A DNA stretch of 64,000 nt, taken from positions 64,001 through 128,000 of the forward strand of contig JAVRCV020000068.1 of NCBI GenBank assembly GCA_034530615.2. Reading direction: 5' to 3'. Source of the stretch: Aulosira sp. ZfuVER01 (GTDB taxonomy: Bacteria; Cyanobacteriota; Cyanobacteriia; Cyanobacteriales; Nostocaceae). The notes below the pieces were generated by a model. It was not told the DNA's origin. It did not search any database and saw nothing but the letters and a program-made list of their open reading frames with translations. Position numbers and translations under genes: made by a program. Below are positions 31,609 to 39,249 of the stretch, one piece after another (within the stretch, counting starts at the first letter, position 1; every line of letters begins with the position of its first letter).

Positions 31609-32247
31609 TTACAAATATAAGGATTGAACAGCCAGATCCTTTAAGGTAATGGTAAAGTTACGCTGCTCTTGTGTAGCAATGAATGCGATAGTTGCCTCAC
31701 ACGCCACAGCAACAGTTAACATCACCAAATTTCGCGCTAGAGGATAATCACAGACATCATCATTGACATCAGAAGGAACGCGATAAACATCATTCCAAAT
31801 TACTTCTGCATAATCGGCTGCTAGTCCAACATGAAGGCAGGGAATTTTTGAACGATCGGCATAATCTTTCACTGCTTGACGTGACAAGCTGTTGTCAAAA
31901 ACATCAATAATTAACTGGCTATCTTGAAGTAGTTGATCTGCATTTGCTGATGTCAACTCCTTTGTTTTGGCATCAACTTTAGTACCAATTGCTCGGTATA
32001 AATTATTTGCTAGGATTTTCGCCTTAATTGCTCCAACATCGGAACGGTAGTAAGGCTGGGTAGAAAGGTTACGTTCCTCAATGCGATCGCGATCGATTAC
32101 CGTAAGTTTATCAAAACCAGACCGAGCCAAGTTTTCTGCAATGTTAGCTCCTAACGCTCCAGCCCCACAAATGGTTATAGGATAATTCTTGAGCTTTGCC
32201 ATCACAGCATTGCTGCGGTAAAGCTGTTCGTGAAAAAAAATACTCAT
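31609..32247 (-). CDS. ThiF/MoeB/E1-like adenylyltransferase
   Basis: GAGALG, DRDRIEERNL, DVFDN; ATG 32247 lies 5 nt after the stop of the upstream gene. Confidence 0.9.
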   Translation of the reverse strand: MSIFFHEQLYRSNAVMAKLKNYPITICGAGALGANIAENLARSGFDKLTVIDRDRIEERNLSTQPYYRSDVGAIKAKILANNLYRAIGTKVDAKTKELTSANADQLLQDSQLIIDVFDNSLSRQAVKDYADRSKIPCLHVGLAADYAEVIWNDVYRVPSDVNDDVCDYPLARNLVMLTVAVACEATIAFIATQEQRNFTITLKDLAVQSLYL

Positions 32248-32252
32248 TGTCC

Positions 32253-33086
32253 TTACCACTCTTGTTGTTCCATCACAGCCACTAAAGATTGCAAATCAAA
32301 ATCGCGATCGCGTCCACTCAAGCAAATCCCAGAACTAATTACAGTCAAATCAGATTTAGCGATCGCACTAGTGTGGCGAACACCATCAGCCGTTCTCCAA
32401 TCCACTGTCCAGTAATCACCGCGATCGTGAAATTGGCGTAATTCACCGCCACCCATTCGCAATGCTTTTCTTAGCCGTTTTTCATCCTGTTGCGGTTGTG
32501 CAAATCCCTCAATCCGCTGAGTTGCTAATTCATACAATGTCCGGATTTCTGGAGTAATCCCTTTGAACTGTAATTCCTCAGCAGGAGTCAGTTGCTTAAC
32601 AGCAGATTGCAGAGTTTCCACAATTGCTGGATCGGTACGGCGATCGATTTCCTCAAACCAGCAGGATTGTCCATTCCAACGAGCGATAACTTGCTCAAAA
32701 ACAACACCCTCAGTTACTAGATGTACTGCGATCGGTTTGACTACCTTCAACCGTTGACGCATATCTACTTCATTCACAGGATATGCTAACCAAGTTTGTC
32801 CTCGCAGTTGGTGTGCTAATCTCAGCCGTATTTGGGGAAAGTGTTGCAAGTATTCTGCAATTTGGGGTAAGTCTGCTTCTTCCACAACTGTTGCTGTCTT
32901 CGTATCGACTGGCTGAAAGATACCCCAACCTTCAAATTGATTATGCTTTGGCGTAAAGGTGTAAACCATCCCAGCTACTCGTGTGCGAACTCGTCCACCT
33001 TTGACACAAGGGGCGATAAATTGAGTTGCACACAACTGTGCTTCTGCACTAGCAATTTGGTTGATTAGCTTACGGATGTCAGTCAT
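32253..33086 (-). CDS. hypothetical protein, C-terminal GICL motif (possibly E2-like)
   Basis: 277 aa ORF adjacent to ThiF. Confidence 0.8.
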   Translation of the reverse strand: MTDIRKLINQIASAEAQLCATQFIAPCVKGGRVRTRVAGMVYTFTPKHNQFEGWGIFQPVDTKTATVVEEADLPQIAEYLQHFPQIRLRLAHQLRGQTWLAYPVNEVDMRQRLKVVKPIAVHLVTEGVVFEQVIARWNGQSCWFEEIDRRTDPAIVETLQSAVKQLTPAEELQFKGITPEIRTLYELATQRIEGFAQPQQDEKRLRKALRMGGGELRQFHDRGDYWTVDWRTADGVRHTSAIAKSDLTVISSGICLSGRDRDFDLQSLVAVMEQQEW

Positions 33087-33158
33087 AGCTCACGCATAGA
33101 CGCAAAGAGGATGTTTATACGTCAATTCAGCAAAGTTAGAGAATTTATATAATTATTT

Positions 33159-33366
33159 CCCGCGTGCAAGTTGGTGGAGCATTGCGTGTTCTCAGTTACT
33201 AGGGGGACTCCGCTGGTGAGTTGTTACACACTCTTTCAAAGATGGCTACTTTTAAGCCCATTTTCCAGGTTCTTCGCACTCCCCGTTCACACACGCCCAC
33301 TGTATTTGACAGTGTTACTTTTCCTCTCGTACTAGTATGTAGGCTCCAAGAGTTAGGGCACGCAGG
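33159..33366 (-). ncRNA. scaffold RNA unit 1 with 23S sarcin-ricin loop and H42-44 (GTPase centre) mimic
   Basis: Scaffold ends GCGUGCCCUAAC and AACUUGCACGC; AGUACGAGAGGA at 33333-33322; GGCUUAAAAGUAGCCAUCUUUGAAAGAGUGUGUAACAACUCAC within 33268-33213. Confidence 0.85.
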
Positions 33367-33570
33367 ATATTTATATAATACAACATACTACAAAAAATAA
33401 ATACCAGAGATTAAAAGAGATATGTTGCAGTAGTGCGATCACTGCCGCTTCATATACCTACTTCATTTCGCTCATCAATATCAACTCCTTAAGTTGAGCG
33501 ATCATCCGAATTAGAAAACATAACTTTATTTATGCTACAACAAGTTACATATGTATTAATGAATTAGGTT

Positions 33571-34938
33571 TTGATGATGTCTGAAAATATATATTTCACA
33601 AAAAAAGGTAAATTTAGCCATGAGCTAGCATTGAACGATCTCAAAGAAATCCAAACTTCAGTCCGCTCAATCGCTAGTGAAAAACCTTTGACGATGAGTC
33701 ATACAAATTCAGATGGTGTATCAGAGGTTATTGAATTGACTGAATTGCCTTTAGATATTCTTCTTAACCAGAAGCAAAAACAGGTGGTATCTAACATAGC
33801 TAAGAGTTTTGCAAAAGGGAATAGCTTTGAAGAAAATGTTTCTAGTAATTTTATTTATGAAAAGTTTCTGAAATTACTAGCAAAAGAAAATTTTTATTTA
33901 GCTGATACATTTACTGTTTCTGATTCATTATCTCTTTTTGAAAATTTGAGGGTGATAATTGAGCAAGAAATTTCAACTGTAAAGCTGAATATTATTACTG
34001 TAATTGGGGCATCTCTTAAGAAAGGCAATATCTGTGAAATTGGCTCAATTAAGTTTATGAATCCGTCGGACTTTATTGACAAGCATAAACTTTTGTTTGA
34101 GAGTCTTGTTAATTATAATGAAGGATTGCAAACTTATCTAGAAGTTTTTCATAAATCTGACTTAGTAGCACAGGTGAGCATTAAAAATAGGGATACTGCT
34201 ACATCTAAAATGGTAACAAATGAAATAATGAAAAGAATCTACACCCTTATTAGATTAACTATCCCAAGTAGTGGGGGACGATATAACTTTTTTGGGACTC
34301 TTGGTGAAGAATATTTAGAATCTAGATTTTCTTTCTTATTTCATACTGATTCAAGCAACGAAGAAATAGTAAAATCTATATCAGTTGAACGCACAAGTAA
34401 TCGGTTTTCAGATAGTAATATAGATTTAATAGAAACTATACTTCCTCATAAACAAGTAAATCAATGGTTTACTCGTATTGAGCTAATCATTAGTAAATTT
34501 GTTAATGATAAAAAATTAACTGATTTTGAAAAAAGGATATGGACAGCCCTTTATTGGTATGGAGAATCTATGTCAGAAAGAGAATTAAATCCTTTGATAA
34601 TTAAATATGCTACTTGTCTTGAAGCATTATTTAATAGTCGTGAAGGTGGAATAAGTGAACAAATTTCTGAGTTTACTGCTTATGTGGTTGGTAAAAACAA
34701 AGATGAAAGGATGAAAGTCTACAGTAATATTAAGAAACTATACAGCTTAAGATCTACTGCTGTACACGGAGGCTCTGTTGTAGGACATGTGGATAGTAAT
34801 TTTCTATCTCAGATTATGTTAATATGCGAATCTGCATTGCTTCAAATGGCATATTATTCTCAAGAGGATTACTATCAAAATTCAAAAGGATACGAAAAAT
34901 TTGTGCAATACATTCTTAGAGAATATAGGTTTATTTGA
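33571..34938 (+). CDS. HEPN-domain protein (ApeA/RiboL-PSP-like), low GC
   Basis: C-terminal LEALF...LYSLRSTAVHG (RxxxxH); AT-rich; antisense to the surrounding genes. Confidence 0.75.
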   Translation: MMMSENIYFTKKGKFSHELALNDLKEIQTSVRSIASEKPLTMSHTNSDGVSEVIELTELPLDILLNQKQKQVVSNIAKSFAKGNSFEENVSSNFIYEKFLKLLAKENFYLADTFTVSDSLSLFENLRVIIEQEISTVKLNIITVIGASLKKGNICEIGSIKFMNPSDFIDKHKLLFESLVNYNEGLQTYLEVFHKSDLVAQVSIKNRDTATSKMVTNEIMKRIYTLIRLTIPSSGGRYNFFGTLGEEYLESRFSFLFHTDSSNEEIVKSISVERTSNRFSDSNIDLIETILPHKQVNQWFTRIELIISKFVNDKKLTDFEKRIWTALYWYGESMSERELNPLIIKYATCLEALFNSREGGISEQISEFTAYVVGKNKDERMKVYSNIKKLYSLRSTAVHGGSVVGHVDSNFLSQIMLICESALLQMAYYSQEDYYQNSKGYEKFVQYILREYRFI

Positions 34939-34972
34939 ATTTAATTAATCTGATTTAAAGGTATTAGTAAAC

Positions 34973-38460: not shown

Positions 38461-38661
38461 TTAACCATAAACAGCTTCAGGCCGAACAATCAAGTCGCCA
38501 CTAGGACGGCGATCAACTATGTAAGCAGAAAGGCGATCGCTATTTACATCTAAATGTCGAGCAACCTGCTCCTTCACTGCTAGATCATTCATACCTGCTG
38601 CAATTCCTAGTTGTGTTTCTGCCACATCAACAGAACGTCCTTCAAATCGAATATGAATCAT
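38461..38661 (-). CDS. small ubiquitin-like (beta-grasp) protein candidate ending in Gly
   Basis: 66 aa [10 protein letters not shown]...[19 protein letters not shown]; same locus as ThiF. Confidence 0.7.
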
Positions 38662-38731
38662 TGCTATCACCTCTTTTTAAATTACGAATGGCTTTCTTAA
38701 TTTTGAATTTTGAATTTTGAATTGGGATTAG

Positions 38732-38940
38732 TGGATCTGATCGGGATTGAACCGATACCCTCCCTGTGAGAGTTGCACTCACACCTCATGCGAGTTGAAA
38801 AAGCTGTGGTAACACACGCAGGAATCGCACCTGCACTTATCGTTTAAAAAGCGATCGCTCTACTATTGAGCAAGTATGTAAGCTTCTTCTGTTAGGGCAC
38901 AAGTGAAATCCGGGATCTCTACCGTTAGAGCTACAGACCC
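38732..38940 (-). ncRNA. outer tRNA-like shell (G3-U70) whose anticodon arm is replaced by a large insert containing unit 6
   Basis: GGGUCUG/CAGAUCC-A acceptor, UAGCUCUAACGGUAGAG D-arm, UCCC/GGGA stem, AUCGG-UUCAAUC-CCGAU T-arm. Confidence 0.75.
38782..38905 (-). ncRNA. scaffold RNA unit 6 with tRNA-Lys(UUU)-like cloverleaf
   Basis: GCUC-AAUAGUA-GAGC, AUCGC-UUUUUAA-ACGAU, GCAGG-UGCGAUU-CCUGC; ACAUAC/GUGUGU acceptor. Confidence 0.8.
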
Positions 38941-39003
38941 AAGTTTGCATGATTGCTCTGCTCTGATTGCAGTCATTGCAACTTCAATCAAAGTCAAAGC
39001 AAG

Positions 39004-39084
39004 TGGAGCCGTCGGGAATTGAACCCGACTCCTGCAACCGTCCGTTTGTTGGTTTCGGAGCAGTCGAACGCCAATCGCGGCCCC
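39004..39084 (-). ncRNA. tmRNA tRNA-like-domain-only mini RNA
   Basis: GGGGCCG-CGAUUGGCGUUCGAC...GGAG-UCGGG-UUCAAUU-CCCGA-CGGCUCC-A; G3-U70; no D-stem and no tag ORF. Confidence 0.75.
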
Positions 39085-39138
39085 AAAAGTGGGCAGTGCC
39101 TATGAGAGTTGTTAAGCTTCACTCTCAAACAGTGGCAT

Positions 39139-39249
39139 CTATGCAGTTGTCACAGTTATGAGAGGTTGTAGTTTTGCCTCTTGAGGAGGCTTTTTTGTTG
39201 ATACTACATTTGTAATACAAAAGCTACATGATGTCAAGGGGATACTACA
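39139..39249 (-). promoter_or_regulatory. putative locus promoter and leader (TTGACA-17-TACAAA, TGTAGTAT repeats, hairpin plus boxA-like element)
   Basis: -35 at 39237-39232; TGTAGTATC at 39249-39241 and 39208-39200; hairpin 39176-39190; AACTGTGACAACTGCATAG at 39157-39139. Confidence 0.5.

What the first reader, a model, noticed from the sequence alone, without database searches (positions are those of the whole stretch)
31609..39249. Candidate new system: Ro60/TROVE-like locus carrying an array of ribosome, tRNA and tmRNA mimic RNAs
Seen: on the minus strand the order is promoter, tmRNA-TLD mini RNA, tRNA shell containing unit 6, Ubl, unit 5, unit 4, basic ORF, unit 3, rplL paralog, unit 2, TROVE-like/vWA gene, [HEPN insert], unit 1, 277 aa ORF, ThiF. 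Six ncRNAs share one scaffold but each carries a different cargo, and those I can assign all copy part of the translation apparatus. Established: Ro60 binds Y RNAs through a stem made from their 5' and 3' ends, and bacterial YrlA RNAs carry a tRNA-like module. The SRL, 23S helix/loop 70 and tRNA anticodon loops (notably Lys-UUU) are known targets of ribotoxins such as sarcin, ricin, some VapC and MazF toxins and PrrC. Inference: this is a modular Ro-tethered bait library. It could act as decoys that absorb ribotoxins or phage factors, or as tripwires whose cleavage or binding triggers Ubl conjugation. I know of no description of Y-like RNAs carrying rRNA mimics, but could not search the literature.
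Basis: partly seen in the sequence, partly recalled or inferred. Interest (0 to 1): 0.96.

Follow-up and report, generated by a model that had tools for sequence, protein, structure and literature searches.

The report
Ro60-like locus with translation-mimic RNA array
A cyanobacterial gene cluster, also found in phage-like contigs, pairs a distant relative of the Ro60 RNA-binding protein and a ubiquitin-like tagging pair with small RNAs that share one docking stem and copy tRNAs or pieces of ribosomal RNA.

Summary
On the minus strand of 31609-39249 lie six RNA units with one shared scaffold: an outer stem, an internal loop (CCYRAY+N3 / NNRACUY), an inner stem, and a cargo starting UACAYA. They are interleaved with a 66-aa Ubl, a 239-aa ORF, an L7/L12 paralog, a vWA protein, a 277-aa ORF and a ThiF-type E1. 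Profile search shows the vWA protein is a divergent Ro60/TROVE homolog (human RO60, E 3.8e-15). Cargos are two tRNA cloverleaves, a YrlA-type tRNA elbow, a 23S H69-H71 copy, a short hairpin, and an SRL copy joined to a GTPase-associated-centre (H42-44) three-way junction. A strict scaffold pattern occurs in 39 of 46 sampled genomes that carry the protein and in 0 of 355 that lack it. The protein set recurs in 24 viral contigs, with JAB in 14 of them. Diverged copies of the same scaffold were recognised in 5 of them, plus one more by eye. The Ubl-E1 fold passed its controls (0.81 vs 0.28). Expression and binding are untested. Best reading: a mobile Ro60-like RNP that displays translation-apparatus look-alikes in a conflict or repair role. 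It is a new variant of the Ro60/Y-RNA kind.

The parts
39001..39084 (-). mini tmRNA-like element: tRNA-like domain only, with no tag ORF or pseudoknots
   Evidence: Rfam tmRNA 43.8 bits (gathering 47), E 5.3e-15, model 1-374 with 316 positions deleted. Found by blastn in 56 of 96 related loci, so it is optional.
38732..38940 (-). outer tRNA-like shell (acceptor, D arm, long variable-arm hairpin, T arm) whose anticodon arm is replaced by unit 6
   Evidence: Read from the sequence. The 5' and 3' halves are conserved in 77 and 78 of 96 loci.
38782..38905 (-). scaffold unit 6; cargo is a full tRNA cloverleaf (anticodon UUU in this strain)
   Evidence: Rfam tRNA 51.1 bits and ARAGORN tRNA-Lys(ttt). 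Scaffold motifs found.
38461..38661 (-). 66-aa ubiquitin-like protein ending in an invariant RPEAVYG
   Evidence: Alignment of 15 homologs, C-terminal Gly invariant. Present in 90 of 96 loci. Predicted complex with E1 scored 0.81 against a best control of 0.28.
38266..38450 (-). scaffold unit 5; cargo copies the 23S H69-H71 junction
   Evidence: 23 of 26 nt identical to a same-genus 23S. Divergent loci hit the same 23S site, 29/33 and 24/26. Consensus fold.
38109..38252 (-). scaffold unit 4; cargo is a YrlA-type tRNA elbow (small hairpin, T arm, 7-bp acceptor hairpin, D arm)
   Evidence: Weak Rfam YrlA hit, 23.1 bits, E 0.24. Consensus fold of 18 homologs.
37259..37978 (-). 239-aa basic protein of unknown family
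   Evidence: No hit in Pfam, PHROGs, PADLOC or NCBIfam. Present in 67 of 96 loci. AF2 pLDDT 58.7, no clear fold match. ESM Atlas look-alikes are hypothetical proteins, about 56% viral.
37124..37253 (-). scaffold unit 3; cargo is a full tRNA cloverleaf (anticodon UAA in this strain)
   Evidence: Rfam tRNA 48.6 bits; ARAGORN tRNA-Leu(taa).
36694..37074 (-). L7/L12 paralog
   Evidence: Pfam Ribosomal_L12 8e-24 plus the N domain 3.8e-10. TIGR00855 105 bits, above cut-off 84. 50% identical to the canonical rplL. NTD and CTD are conserved and the hinge is replaced. Present in 30 of 96 loci.
36493..36568 (-). scaffold unit 2; cargo is a short hairpin of about 30 nt
35003..36433 (-). 476-aa divergent Ro60/TROVE-like protein with a C-terminal vWA (MIDAS) domain
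   Evidence: Pfam vWA only. phmmer to phage phiLo Ro60 9l5y, E 9e-5 over residues 25-394. The family profile hits human RO60 at 3.8e-15, Xenopus Ro at 6e-12 and Deinococcus Rsr at 6.8e-7. D300, S302, S304, T362 and D386 are invariant.
33571..34938 (+). strain-specific AT-rich insertion with a 455-aa ORF; not part of the conserved system
   Evidence: One partial hit in 96 related loci. No Pfam family above cut-off. PHROG 28161, E 4e-7, on residues 348-407.
33158..33367 (-). scaffold unit 1; cargo is an SRL-like hairpin, a second hairpin, and a three-way junction copying the 23S GTPase-associated centre (H42-44)
   Evidence: Exact 13/13 TAGTACGAGAGGA and 51/70 nt to 23S 1057-1126, E 1e-8. Consensus fold of 47 homologs with compensatory changes. 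The Rfam LSU model hit model positions 1093-1148 at 51-52 bits at two sites in two same-genus genomes; I did not fetch those sites.
32253..33086 (-). 277-aa protein of unknown family, translationally coupled to the E1
   Evidence: No family hit. 1309 homologs, all unnamed. Present in 76 of 96 loci and 20 of 24 viral loci. The phage homolog aligns at hhalign 99.7%. The N-terminal domain matches OB/TRAM folds only weakly, Z 3.3-5.0.
31609..32247 (-). minimal ThiF/MoeB-type E1 adenylyltransferase (212 aa)
   Evidence: Pfam ThiF 1.7e-27. NCBIfam ThiF-type models match below their cut-offs. Predicted to bind the Ubl tail at its glycine-rich loop.

Best explanation
This is a horizontally mobile Ro60-like ribonucleoprotein module. 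A divergent TROVE+vWA protein is encoded together with an array of Y-RNA-like RNAs. Each RNA closes with the same stem and internal-loop module. I infer that this module docks on the TROVE-like protein, as the terminal helix of Y RNAs docks on Ro60. Each RNA displays a different look-alike of the translation machinery. In this window these are two tRNA cloverleaves, a YrlA-type tRNA elbow, the 23S H69-H71 junction, and an SRL hairpin joined to the L10/L11/L12-binding GTPase-associated centre. I propose that the RNP offers these look-alikes as baits to proteins that recognise or attack tRNA and the ribosomal factor-binding site during phage-host conflict or translational stress. Such proteins could be ribotoxins, anticodon nucleases, or factors that bind translational GTPases. 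Under this proposal, engagement or damage of a bait is handled on the TROVE ring/vWA platform and coupled to the co-encoded Ubl-E1 pair and the 277-aa protein, with JAB added in phage versions. Shown here: the anatomy, the covariation, the cargo identities, the homology, the strict co-occurrence of RNA and protein, and conservation of the module in phage-like contigs. Inferred: RNA-protein binding, the bait role, and any link to Ubl conjugation. The confidence of 0.45 is for the bait mechanism. I would put the narrower claim, that this is a Ro60-like RNP whose RNAs are the scaffold units, at about 0.8.
For: Ro60 homology: the family profile hits human RO60 at E 3.8e-15, phage phiLo Ro60 at 2.4e-13 over positions 24-393, Xenopus Ro at 6e-12 and Deinococcus Rsr at 6.8e-7. 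The MIDAS residues are invariant.

Scaffold: 410 distinct units. Outer-stem position 6 was not imposed by the scan and is 97% paired, with TA 194, CG 77, GT 68 and TG 47. Inner-stem positions show AT/GC/TA/TG exchanges.

Co-occurrence: the 26-nt pattern is present in 39 of 401 sampled genomes of the phylum, and the reversed control matches 0. All 39 are among the 46 genomes with the protein, so 0 of 355 protein-negative genomes have it.

Synteny: Ubl is present in 90 of 96 loci, p277 in 76, E1 in 74. The core order Ubl, units, TROVE holds across 16 loci from other cyanobacterial families.

Phage versions: of 24 viral loci, Ubl is in 18, p277 in 20, JAB in 14 and E1 in 12. The scaffold is recognisably the same in L134, L145 and L148. 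A broadened scan found 16 units in 5 of 24 loci against 0.1 expected in shuffles.

Cargo. Accessory L7/L12 paralog. EF-Tu paralog next to it in L115, and second EF-Tu copies in two genomes. Tpt1 and a nucleotidyltransferase in L115. Ubl-E1 fold scored 0.81 in three runs against a best control of 0.28, with partner pLDDT 92.
Against: There is no expression or binding data; no RNA run was listed. The scaffold does not match the published bacterial Ro60-binding motif GNCGAAN0-1G (PMC4201824, section 6 read) or the Rfam Y_RNA/YrlA models at gathering score. Docking on the protein therefore rests on co-occurrence only.

Anticodons of the tRNA-like cargos are hypervariable: of 157, CUA 26, UAA 17, GAA 16, UGA 13, UUU 4, and 32 with no call. 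That fits neutral drift at an unused site at least as well as bait diversification.

rRNA-like cargos were found only in cyanobacterial loci and not in the 24 viral loci, so ribosome mimicry is not universal to the module.

The L7/L12 paralog is in only 30 of 96 loci, and an EF-Tu copy is beside the locus in 2 of 96.

No E2 was found, and no JAB was found in the window. A minimal ThiF-type E1 with a ThiS-like Ubl could equally be a sulfur-carrier pair. The Ubl-E1 pass may reflect memory of solved ThiF-ThiS and MoeB-MoaD complexes. Models of the 277-aa and 239-aa proteins were poor, with pLDDT 51 and 59.
Confidence: 0.45

Rival explanations
1. Tether or repair platform, the classical Y-RNA model. 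The scaffold binds the TROVE-like ring. The cargos do not bait enemies. Instead they recruit the cell's or phage's own tRNA- and rRNA-handling enzymes or translation factors to the ring, so that damaged tRNA or rRNA is repaired, trimmed or degraded. This parallels Y RNA tethering Ro60 to PNPase, and Rsr-YrlA sitting in the RtcB/RtcA operon.
For: Ro60 homology. The YrlA-type module is the commonest non-cloverleaf cargo and also occurs in phage arrays. RNA-repair genes lie in some loci: Tpt1/KptA and a PolyA_pol-head nucleotidyltransferase in L115. A scaffold unit sits inside a tRNA array flanked by a LigT-like 2H phosphoesterase, a CCA-adding-type enzyme and an HNH. Viral relatives sit beside tRNA arrays. 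Published view of phage ROT/TROVE plus a tRNA-like partner as a repair platform (PMC7824862, passages read). Free variation of the anticodon fits a purely structural handle.
Against: No RtcB, RtcA or PNPase is encoded in the window locus. Repair genes are seen in only 1 of 16 diverse loci examined. This model gives no obvious reason to copy the SRL, the GTPase-associated centre and H69-H71, or to keep a Ubl-E1 pair in nearly every locus.
Confidence: 0.3
2. Factor titration or translation remodelling. The GAC+SRL RNA, together with the L7/L12 paralog and in some lineages an EF-Tu paralog, forms a miniature factor-binding site. This site, along with the tRNA look-alikes, sequesters or buffers translational GTPases or ribosomal stalk proteins. 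The result is a change in translation during stress or phage takeover.
For: Unit 1 combines SRL-like and H42-44-like elements in one RNA, with compensatory changes in the junction. The L12 paralog keeps its N-terminal domain and its conserved C-terminal domain (the KKIAxLKVxRxxTGLGLKEAKDxV segment); that the CTD is the factor-binding domain is recalled knowledge. An EF-Tu paralog lies directly after the L12 paralog in L115.
Against: The L12 paralog is in 30 of 96 loci, an EF-Tu copy is near the locus in 2 of 96, and unit-1-class RNA is absent from the viral loci. These are accessories and not core parts. This model does not explain the TROVE-like protein or the Ubl.
Confidence: 0.15
3. The units are processing punctuation or degenerate tRNA-array remnants of a mobile element. 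They mark cleavage sites in a polycistronic transcript and are not bound by the TROVE-like protein.
For: The units lie between ORFs. tRNA-like structures are classic RNase P/Z signals. One unit lies within a tRNA array. The locus has a patchy, mobile distribution: 46 of 401 genomes and one plasmid copy.
Against: The scaffold module itself is under covariation-preserving selection. It is conserved from cyanobacteria to 41-55% diverged viral loci. It is never found in 355 genomes without the protein. In the phage L134, units have their own repeated promoter-like boxes and are not intercistronic. The rRNA-like cargos are not tRNA remnants.
Confidence: 0.05

Closest known systems
Bacterial Ro60 (Rsr) with YrlA/Yrn Y RNAs (Chen et al. 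2014, PMC4201824; passages and section 6 read)
   Same: A TROVE+vWA protein encoded next to its noncoding RNAs. The RNAs are built from a terminal protein-docking stem plus a tRNA-like module. Unit 4 and many cargos in other loci have the YrlA order: V hairpin, T arm, acceptor hairpin, D arm. Phage-encoded versions exist.
   Different: The protein is not detected by Pfam TROVE. The genome has a separate canonical TROVE protein elsewhere. The docking module differs (CCYRAY / RACUY loop, UACAYA) from the published GNCGAAN0-1G motif. The RNAs come as arrays of up to 6-7. Some cargos are unpermuted full cloverleaves and some are rRNA copies. The locus is linked to a Ubl-E1 pair instead of RtcB/RtcA or PNPase.
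Phage ROT/TROVE RNA-repair platforms and Thermus phage phiLo Ro60 (PMC7824862, passages read; PMC12135203, search listing and abstract only)
   Same: A TROVE-family protein in large phages, associated with tRNA-like RNAs and tRNA arrays. phiLo Ro60 (9l5y) is the best single-sequence PDB match.
   Different: Only 24.8 bits to phiLo Ro60. The Ubl, p277, JAB, E1 neighbourhood and the shared scaffold were not mentioned in the passages I could read.
Prokaryotic Ubl-E1-JAB systems and the ThiS/ThiF and MoaD/MoeB sulfur-carrier pairs (recalled knowledge)
   Same: A small protein with a C-terminal Gly, plus a ThiF-fold adenylating enzyme. Phage versions have one extra residue after the Gly and a JAB gene nearby.
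   Different: No E2-like protein was detected. The E1 is minimal (212 aa). The target is unknown. The association with a Ro60-like RNP did not turn up in my literature searches.
Long tRNA gene arrays of cyanobacteria (PMC8421152, term search only)
   Same: A mobile set of translation RNAs, reported to be induced under translational stress. One scaffold unit is embedded in this genome's array.
   Different: Arrays encode functional, aminoacylated tRNAs. Here the tRNA-like parts are locked inside a closing stem and their anticodons drift.

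Membership tests
Ro60/TROVE (Rsr) proteins | TROVE domain recognised by the curated family model (Pfam PF05731) | tested here: not met
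   Pfam scan of the 476-aa protein gives only VWA_CoxE and VWA_2. None of 46 diverse members hits PF05731. The same model does find another protein in this genome.
Ro60/TROVE (Rsr) proteins | Remote sequence homology to solved Ro60 structures across the N-terminal repeat region and the vWA | tested here: met
   The profile of 46 members hits 9nen human RO60 at 3.8e-15 (154-418), 9l5y at 2.4e-13 (24-393), 1yvp at 6e-12 (102-418) and 2nvo at 6.8e-7. The ring fold itself was not modelled.
Ro60/TROVE (Rsr) proteins | C-terminal vWA domain with a MIDAS motif | tested here: met
   D300, S302, S304, T362 and D386 are invariant in 46 sequences. Pfam vWA_Ro60 (PF25045) hits 10 of 46 members.
Ro60/TROVE (Rsr) proteins | Binds Y RNA through a terminal helix | not testable with these tools
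   Only co-occurrence is available: 39 of 46 against 0 of 355 genomes.
YrlA RNA (Rfam RF02553) | Covariance-model score at or above gathering (69 bits) | tested here: not met
   Best hit is 23.1 bits, E 0.24, on unit 4, covering model positions 30-81 only.
YrlA RNA (Rfam RF02553) | tRNA-like module in the order T arm, acceptor hairpin, D arm | tested here: met
   Consensus fold of 18 unit-4 homologs. The same order is seen in cargos of other loci and phage arrays.
YrlA RNA (Rfam RF02553) | GNCGAAN0-1G motif near the 5' end (PMC4201824) | tested here: not met
   By eye, the 5' strands read G(Y)GC-CCYRAY and no GNCGAA occurs there. No formal motif search was run.
tmRNA | Rfam gathering score, with the mRNA-like region and pseudoknots present | tested here: not met
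   43.8 bits against 47. Only the tRNA-like domain aligns; 316 model positions are deleted. ARAGORN calls no tmRNA.
Prokaryotic Ubl-E1 systems | ThiF-fold E1 and a small partner ending in Gly that enters the adenylation site | tested here: met
   Pfam ThiF 1.7e-27. C-terminal G66 is invariant. In the predicted complex, Ubl residues 60-66 touch E1 residues 28 and 30-33; score 0.81 against a best control of 0.28. The pass may come from likeness to solved ThiF-ThiS complexes.
Prokaryotic Ubl-E1 systems | JAB peptidase and/or E2 in the neighbourhood | tested here: inconclusive
   No JAB or E2 family hit in the window. A weak Prok-JAB hit (E 9.5e-5) in phage L134, and JAB-like ORFs in 14 of 24 viral loci. 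No E2 was found anywhere; the 277-aa protein is unassigned.
Ribosomal protein L7/L12 | Family model above the curated cut-off | tested here: met
   TIGR00855 scores 105.4 against a cut-off of 84.4. It is a second copy, 50% identical to the rplL that sits next to L10 and L1.

The most novel reading that the evidence does not exclude
The RNP is a miniature stand-in for the ribosome's factor-binding site and for tRNAs. The SRL+GAC RNA, the H69-H71 RNA, the tRNA look-alikes and the L7/L12 and EF-Tu paralogs together form a sensor or decoy. It captures translation-targeting effectors such as ribotoxins, anticodon nucleases or GTPase-hijacking factors, and reports capture or damage through Ubl conjugation. 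On this reading it is a translation-guarding surveillance system, used by both cyanobacteria and their phages, with hypervariable anticodons tracking the effectors in circulation.
Probability: 0.25. Interest if true: 0.95.

Novelty: new variant of a known kind. Interest (0 to 1): 0.86.

Why it matters
Ro60-Y RNA particles are conserved from bacteria to humans, yet their cellular logic is still debated. This module would extend the known repertoire of Y-like RNAs from tRNA mimicry to ribosomal-RNA mimicry (SRL, GTPase-associated centre, H69-H71). It would define a new docking module and a new TROVE-like protein family with more than 1000 clusters at 50% identity. It would also link a Ro60-like RNP to a ubiquitin-like modifier for the first time, as far as my literature searches could tell. 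The module is compact, occurs in culturable Nostocales and in phage-like contigs, and has clear RNA and protein parts. That makes it directly testable whether Ro60-type RNPs work as baits, tethers or sensors.

Tried and rejected
RNA-seq evidence: the look-up of sequencing runs listed no RNA holder, so expression is untested and read laying was not used.

The 23S rRNA is not in this assembly, so a same-genus 23S was used instead.

Fold assignment failed for the two unknown proteins. AF2 models were poor (pLDDT 51.0 and 58.7). VIA-align gave only middling matches: p277 N-terminus to TRAM/OB/S1 domains at Z 3.3-5.0, and p239 best to Bax1 at Z 6.2. I draw no fold claim from these.

ESM Atlas gave nothing for p277. 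For p239 it gave only unnamed, partly viral clusters. PADLOC has no model for any protein except E1-like hits to Cap2-type E1-E2.

The 'extra' units of about 250 nt upstream in some Nostoc loci are false positives on inspection.

No covariance model of the scaffold was built. A regex-plus-stem scan with strand, reversed-pattern, whole-genome and shuffle controls was used instead. That scan misses diverged scaffolds, for example in L148.

A10 worked.

Literature: searches found no description of this scaffold, of rRNA-mimic Y-like RNAs, or of a TROVE-Ubl-E1 module. Burroughs & Aravind 2016 (NAR) and Sim et al. 2020 (Annu Rev Microbiol) are not held. They may already describe the protein-level neighbourhood. 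Supplements of Chen et al. 2014 were not opened, so cyanobacterial YrlA entries there may overlap unit-4-type RNAs.

Earlier findings of this scan: nothing on this locus.

Full report
**What is in the window.** The organism is a Nostocales cyanobacterium: the closest named proteins are from Nostoc spp.. On the minus strand of 31609-39249 the order is as follows:
- a conserved upstream region;
- a mini tmRNA-like tRNA-like domain, 39084-39001;
- a tRNA-like shell, 38940-38732, whose anticodon arm is replaced by unit 6;
- a 66-aa ORF;
- units 5 and 4;
- a 239-aa ORF;
- unit 3;
- an L7/L12 paralog;
- unit 2;
- a 476-aa vWA protein;
- a plus-strand 455-aa ORF in AT-rich DNA;
- unit 1;
- a 277-aa ORF overlapping the start of a ThiF-type E1.

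Pfam confirms ThiF (1.7e-27), Ribosomal_L12 (8e-24) and vWA (4.3e-7). It finds nothing for the 66-, 239-, 277- and 455-aa products. ARAGORN and Rfam call two tRNAs, inside units 6 and 3. At relaxed threshold Rfam adds the tmRNA-like element (43.8 bits, gathering 47, 316 of 374 model positions deleted) and a weak YrlA match in unit 4 (23.1 bits).

**The scaffold is real.** All six units have the same parts:
- an outer stem of 6-11 bp ending G(Y)GC;
- a 5' loop CCYRAY plus three nucleotides;
- an inner stem of 6-7 bp;
- a cargo that begins (N)UACA(Y)A;
- a 3' loop NNRACUY.

A loose scan of the whole 8.03-Mb assembly gave 47 hits on both strands. Six are these units, and one is a complete further unit on contig C32. 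The remaining 40 lack the inner motif, judged by eye from the printed ends.

In 80 loci fetched around relatives of the 476-aa protein, plus the window, 389 hits lie on the gene strand and 4 on the other strand. A few of the 389 are nested or over-long spans.

Over 97 loci plus the window, 457 hits reduce to 422 with an inner stem of at least 5 of 6 pairs, and these to 410 distinct sequences. Outer-stem position 6 was not imposed by the scan. It is 97% paired with four pair types (TA 194, CG 77, GT 68, TG 47). Positions 2 and 5 switch between TA and CG, and among CG, TA and GC. Inner-stem positions 0-2 switch among AT, TA, TG and GC. The loops stay conserved.

**The cargos.** Clustering of 404 units gives these classes:
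- Class A: full cloverleaves, 157 distinct (units 6 and 3).
- Class B: small hairpin, T arm, 7-bp acceptor hairpin, D arm, 69 distinct (unit 4). Its consensus fold is the arrangement described for YrlA (PMC4201824, section 6).
- Class C: 47 distinct (unit 1).
- Class D: short hairpins, 40 in the main cluster plus about 20 in small clusters (unit 2).
- Class E: 36 distinct plus two divergent (unit 5).
- Several minor classes seen only in other cyanobacterial families. One has an anticodon-like arm, T arm and acceptor hairpin. One is an unassigned class.

This assembly has no 23S gene, so I compared the cargos with a same-genus rRNA operon.

Unit 1 contains an exact 13-mer of the sarcin-ricin loop, TAGTACGAGAGGA. 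It also has 51 of 70 nt matching 23S positions 1057-1126, E 1e-8. The consensus fold of 47 class C units gives a three-way junction laid out like H42-H44. It shows compensatory changes at columns 107:130 (GC 31/AU 14), 60:66 (CG 21/UA 19) and 77:182 (GC 37/UA 9). The Rfam LSU model matched model positions 1093-1148 at 51-52 bits at two sites in two same-genus genomes. I did not fetch those sites to confirm that they are unit-1 homologs.

Unit 5 matches 23 of 26 nt at 23S 1842-1867. Two divergent loci hit the same place (24/26 and 29/33), and the longer match includes the H69 loop sequence.

No other cargo class matched 16S, 23S or 5S.

**The protein is a Ro60 relative.** phmmer against PDB sequences finds the phage phiLo 'TROVE domain-containing protein' (9l5y/9kop), E 9e-5, aligned over residues 25-394. 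HMMER over 1.84 billion representatives finds 1054 clusters at E<=1e-3 and 416 at E<=1e-30. A profile of 46 diverse full-length members hits human RO60 at 3.8e-15, phiLo Ro60 at 2.4e-13, Xenopus Ro at 6e-12 and Deinococcus Rsr at 6.8e-7. Ten of the 46 hit Pfam vWA_Ro60. The MIDAS residues are invariant. Pfam TROVE itself is not matched. The genome encodes a separate canonical TROVE protein on contig C15. This is therefore a distinct, unrecognised branch of the Ro60 family.

**RNA and protein travel together.** In an even sample of 401 genomes of the phylum, 46 encode the protein. The distribution is patchy: 14 of 45 in the window's own family and 19 of 25 in another. A strict 26-nt pattern for the 5' half of the scaffold is found in 39 genomes, and its reversed control matches none. 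I compared the two lists by hand. All 39 are protein-positive, so 0 of 355 protein-negative genomes carry the pattern.

The seven protein-positive, pattern-negative genomes break down as follows:
- two have gene fragments only;
- one has a pseudogene;
- three have looser units that I found with the loose scan (L116, L117, L120);
- one I did not inspect.

Units away from the main locus also occur only in protein-positive genomes. An example is the unit inside this genome's roughly 30-gene tRNA array.

In 96 loci, tblastn finds the Ubl in 90, p277 in 76, the E1 in 74, p239 in 67 and the L7/L12 paralog in 30. The 455-aa ORF appears once, and only partially. Across 16 loci from other cyanobacterial families the constant core is Ubl, then 1-7 units, then the TROVE-like gene.

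**Phage-like contigs carry the same module.** A 131-kb viral contig (L134) encodes these parts:
- a 42%-identical TROVE-like protein;
- an 85-aa Ubl homolog ending AVFGK (hhalign 97.3%);
- a p277 homolog (99.7%, E 1.6e-26);
- a weak Prok-JAB hit (E 9.5e-5) and a ThiF E1 (1.6e-23).

Upstream it has about seven units with a recognisably related scaffold: stem, YCURAY, inner stem, UACAUU, cargo, inner stem, AACUYG, stem. Their cargos are tRNA-like or YrlA-like. Several units are preceded by a repeated promoter-like box, and the array ends in a terminator-like hairpin.

With a narrower alignment, 24 viral loci with full-length relatives (30-59% identity) were fetched. Two pairs are near-duplicates, and one locus is L134 again. 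Among the 24, Ubl is found in 18, p277 in 20, JAB-like in 14 and E1 in 12, within 5-kb flanks. Of 21 loci scanned by ARAGORN, 16 have at least one tRNA or tRNA-like gene, mostly just upstream on the same strand, and two sit beside arrays of 8 and 15. A broadened scaffold scan finds 16 units in 5 of 24 loci, against 0.1 expected in shuffles. Reading L145 and L148 by eye shows further variants that the regex partly misses. No rRNA-like cargo was detected in the viral loci.

**The Ubl-E1 pair.** The 66-aa protein is 59-85% identical across cyanobacterial families, and its C-terminal RPEAVYG is invariant. Folding it with the E1, using alignments for both, scored 0.81 in three runs against a best control of 0.28. 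The runs agree in at least 97% of contacts, and the partner's pLDDT is 92. On calibration the mark was reached by 116 of 157 solved complexes and 2 of 215 mismatched pairs. Ubl residues 60-66 contact E1 residues 28 and 30-33, the glycine-rich loop. ThiF-ThiS and MoeB-MoaD complexes are solved, so this pass shows likeness and not proof. No E2 was found. JAB appears only in the viral versions, where the Ubl carries an extra residue after the Gly.

**Accessory translation parts.** The L7/L12 paralog is 50% identical to the canonical rplL. It keeps the N-terminal domain and the conserved C-terminal domain, and replaces the Ala/Gly hinge with a charged linker. In one locus of another family (L115), an EF-Tu paralog follows the L12 paralog directly. 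That locus also holds a PolyA_pol-head nucleotidyltransferase, DUF4291, Tpt1/KptA and an HNH. That genome and one other each have two EF-Tu copies, 75-76% identical to the query.

ARAGORN on the 157 distinct class A cargos gives CUA 26, UAA 17, GAA 16, UGA 13, UAG 6, GCA 6 and UUU only 4, with no call for 32. Column entropies show U33 invariant and positions 34-36 the most variable columns in both cloverleaf classes. Lys-UUU is thus a strain accident. The variability may reflect drift at an unused site or diversifying selection, and I could not distinguish these. Within Nostocales the same six cargo classes recur in the same order, so the set is fixed and not a free library. The tmRNA-like element is optional, present in 56 of 96 loci. 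The proposed promoter is not among the consensus matches. The 455-aa ORF is a strain-specific insertion. I found no family support for calling it HEPN beyond an R-x4-H string visible in the translation and one PHROG of unknown function.

**Interpretation.** Established by calls: the anatomy, the covariation, the cargo identities, the Ro60 homology, the strict co-occurrence, and conservation into phage-like contigs. Inferred: that the scaffold is the docking site for the TROVE-like protein, by analogy with Ro60 and the Y RNA terminal helix. I cite Chen 2014 for bacteria; the Ro60 ring mechanism is recalled knowledge.

My preferred mechanism is a bait or sensor RNP for factors that recognise tRNA and the ribosomal factor-binding site, coupled to the Ubl system. 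The main rival is the classical tether or repair platform. RNA-repair genes in some loci and the tRNA-array link favour that rival. Factor titration and mere processing punctuation are less likely, for the reasons given under the rival explanations.

**Novelty and limits.** Known in print: Ro60 with YrlA-type tRNA-mimic RNAs, and phage TROVE proteins. Not found by nine full-text searches:
- this protein branch;
- this docking module;
- arrays of up to seven RNAs;
- rRNA-mimic cargos;
- the Ubl-E1(-JAB)-p277 neighbourhood.

Two key reviews or analyses could not be read. No supplements were opened. No expression data could be obtained.

Noticed in passing
G000 contig C32:178950-181570 (locus L129 6956-9569, minus strand): An array of about 30 tRNA genes contains one complete scaffold unit (C32:181011-181152) between two tRNAs. 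Its cargo is an anticodon-like arm, a T arm and an acceptor hairpin. Neighbours include an HNH endonuclease, a LigT-like 2H phosphoesterase and a CCA-adding-type nucleotidyltransferase.
   Followed up: partly
window 33571-34938 (+), AT-rich stretch about 33400-35000: A strain-specific insertion between the TROVE-like gene and unit 1 encodes a 455-aa protein. It has no Pfam family above cut-off, carries an R-x4-H string near its C-terminus, and matches PHROG 28161 of unknown function. It is absent from 95 of 96 related loci.
   Followed up: partly
G000 contig C15:~139570-143170 (L131/L132): A canonical Pfam-TROVE protein (558-aa frame) lies elsewhere in the same genome. Beside it are a 122-nt tRNA-model match (37.7 bits, so a tRNA with an insert) and a 35-nt tmRNA-TLD-like match (20.7 bits). 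The genome may therefore run two Ro60-type systems.
   Followed up: partly
L115 6615-7865 and L122 14289-15533: Second EF-Tu copies lie within or near the module in two other cyanobacterial genomes. In L115 the copy comes directly after the L7/L12 paralog and before the TROVE-like gene.
   Followed up: partly
L122 8297-8952: A YoeB/YefM toxin-antitoxin pair is inserted between the TROVE-like gene and p277. A PIN-domain gene and a GNAT gene lie further upstream.
   Followed up: no
window 39200-39290 (minus strand): The upstream region has three copies of a TGTAG(T/C) word around a TTGACA box, followed by a GC hairpin. On the plus strand that hairpin reads as a terminator-like site (39176-39190). 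The region is conserved in 73 of 96 loci and could be an operator or promoter.
   Followed up: no
window 42258-42501 (minus strand): The same 10-mer recurs three times at 117-nt spacing, which suggests a tandem repeat. It is unrelated to the finding.
   Followed up: no
L126 7784-8602 and L134 2518-3123: A separate small stand-alone vWA protein is encoded near the module in one cyanobacterial locus and one viral locus.
   Followed up: no
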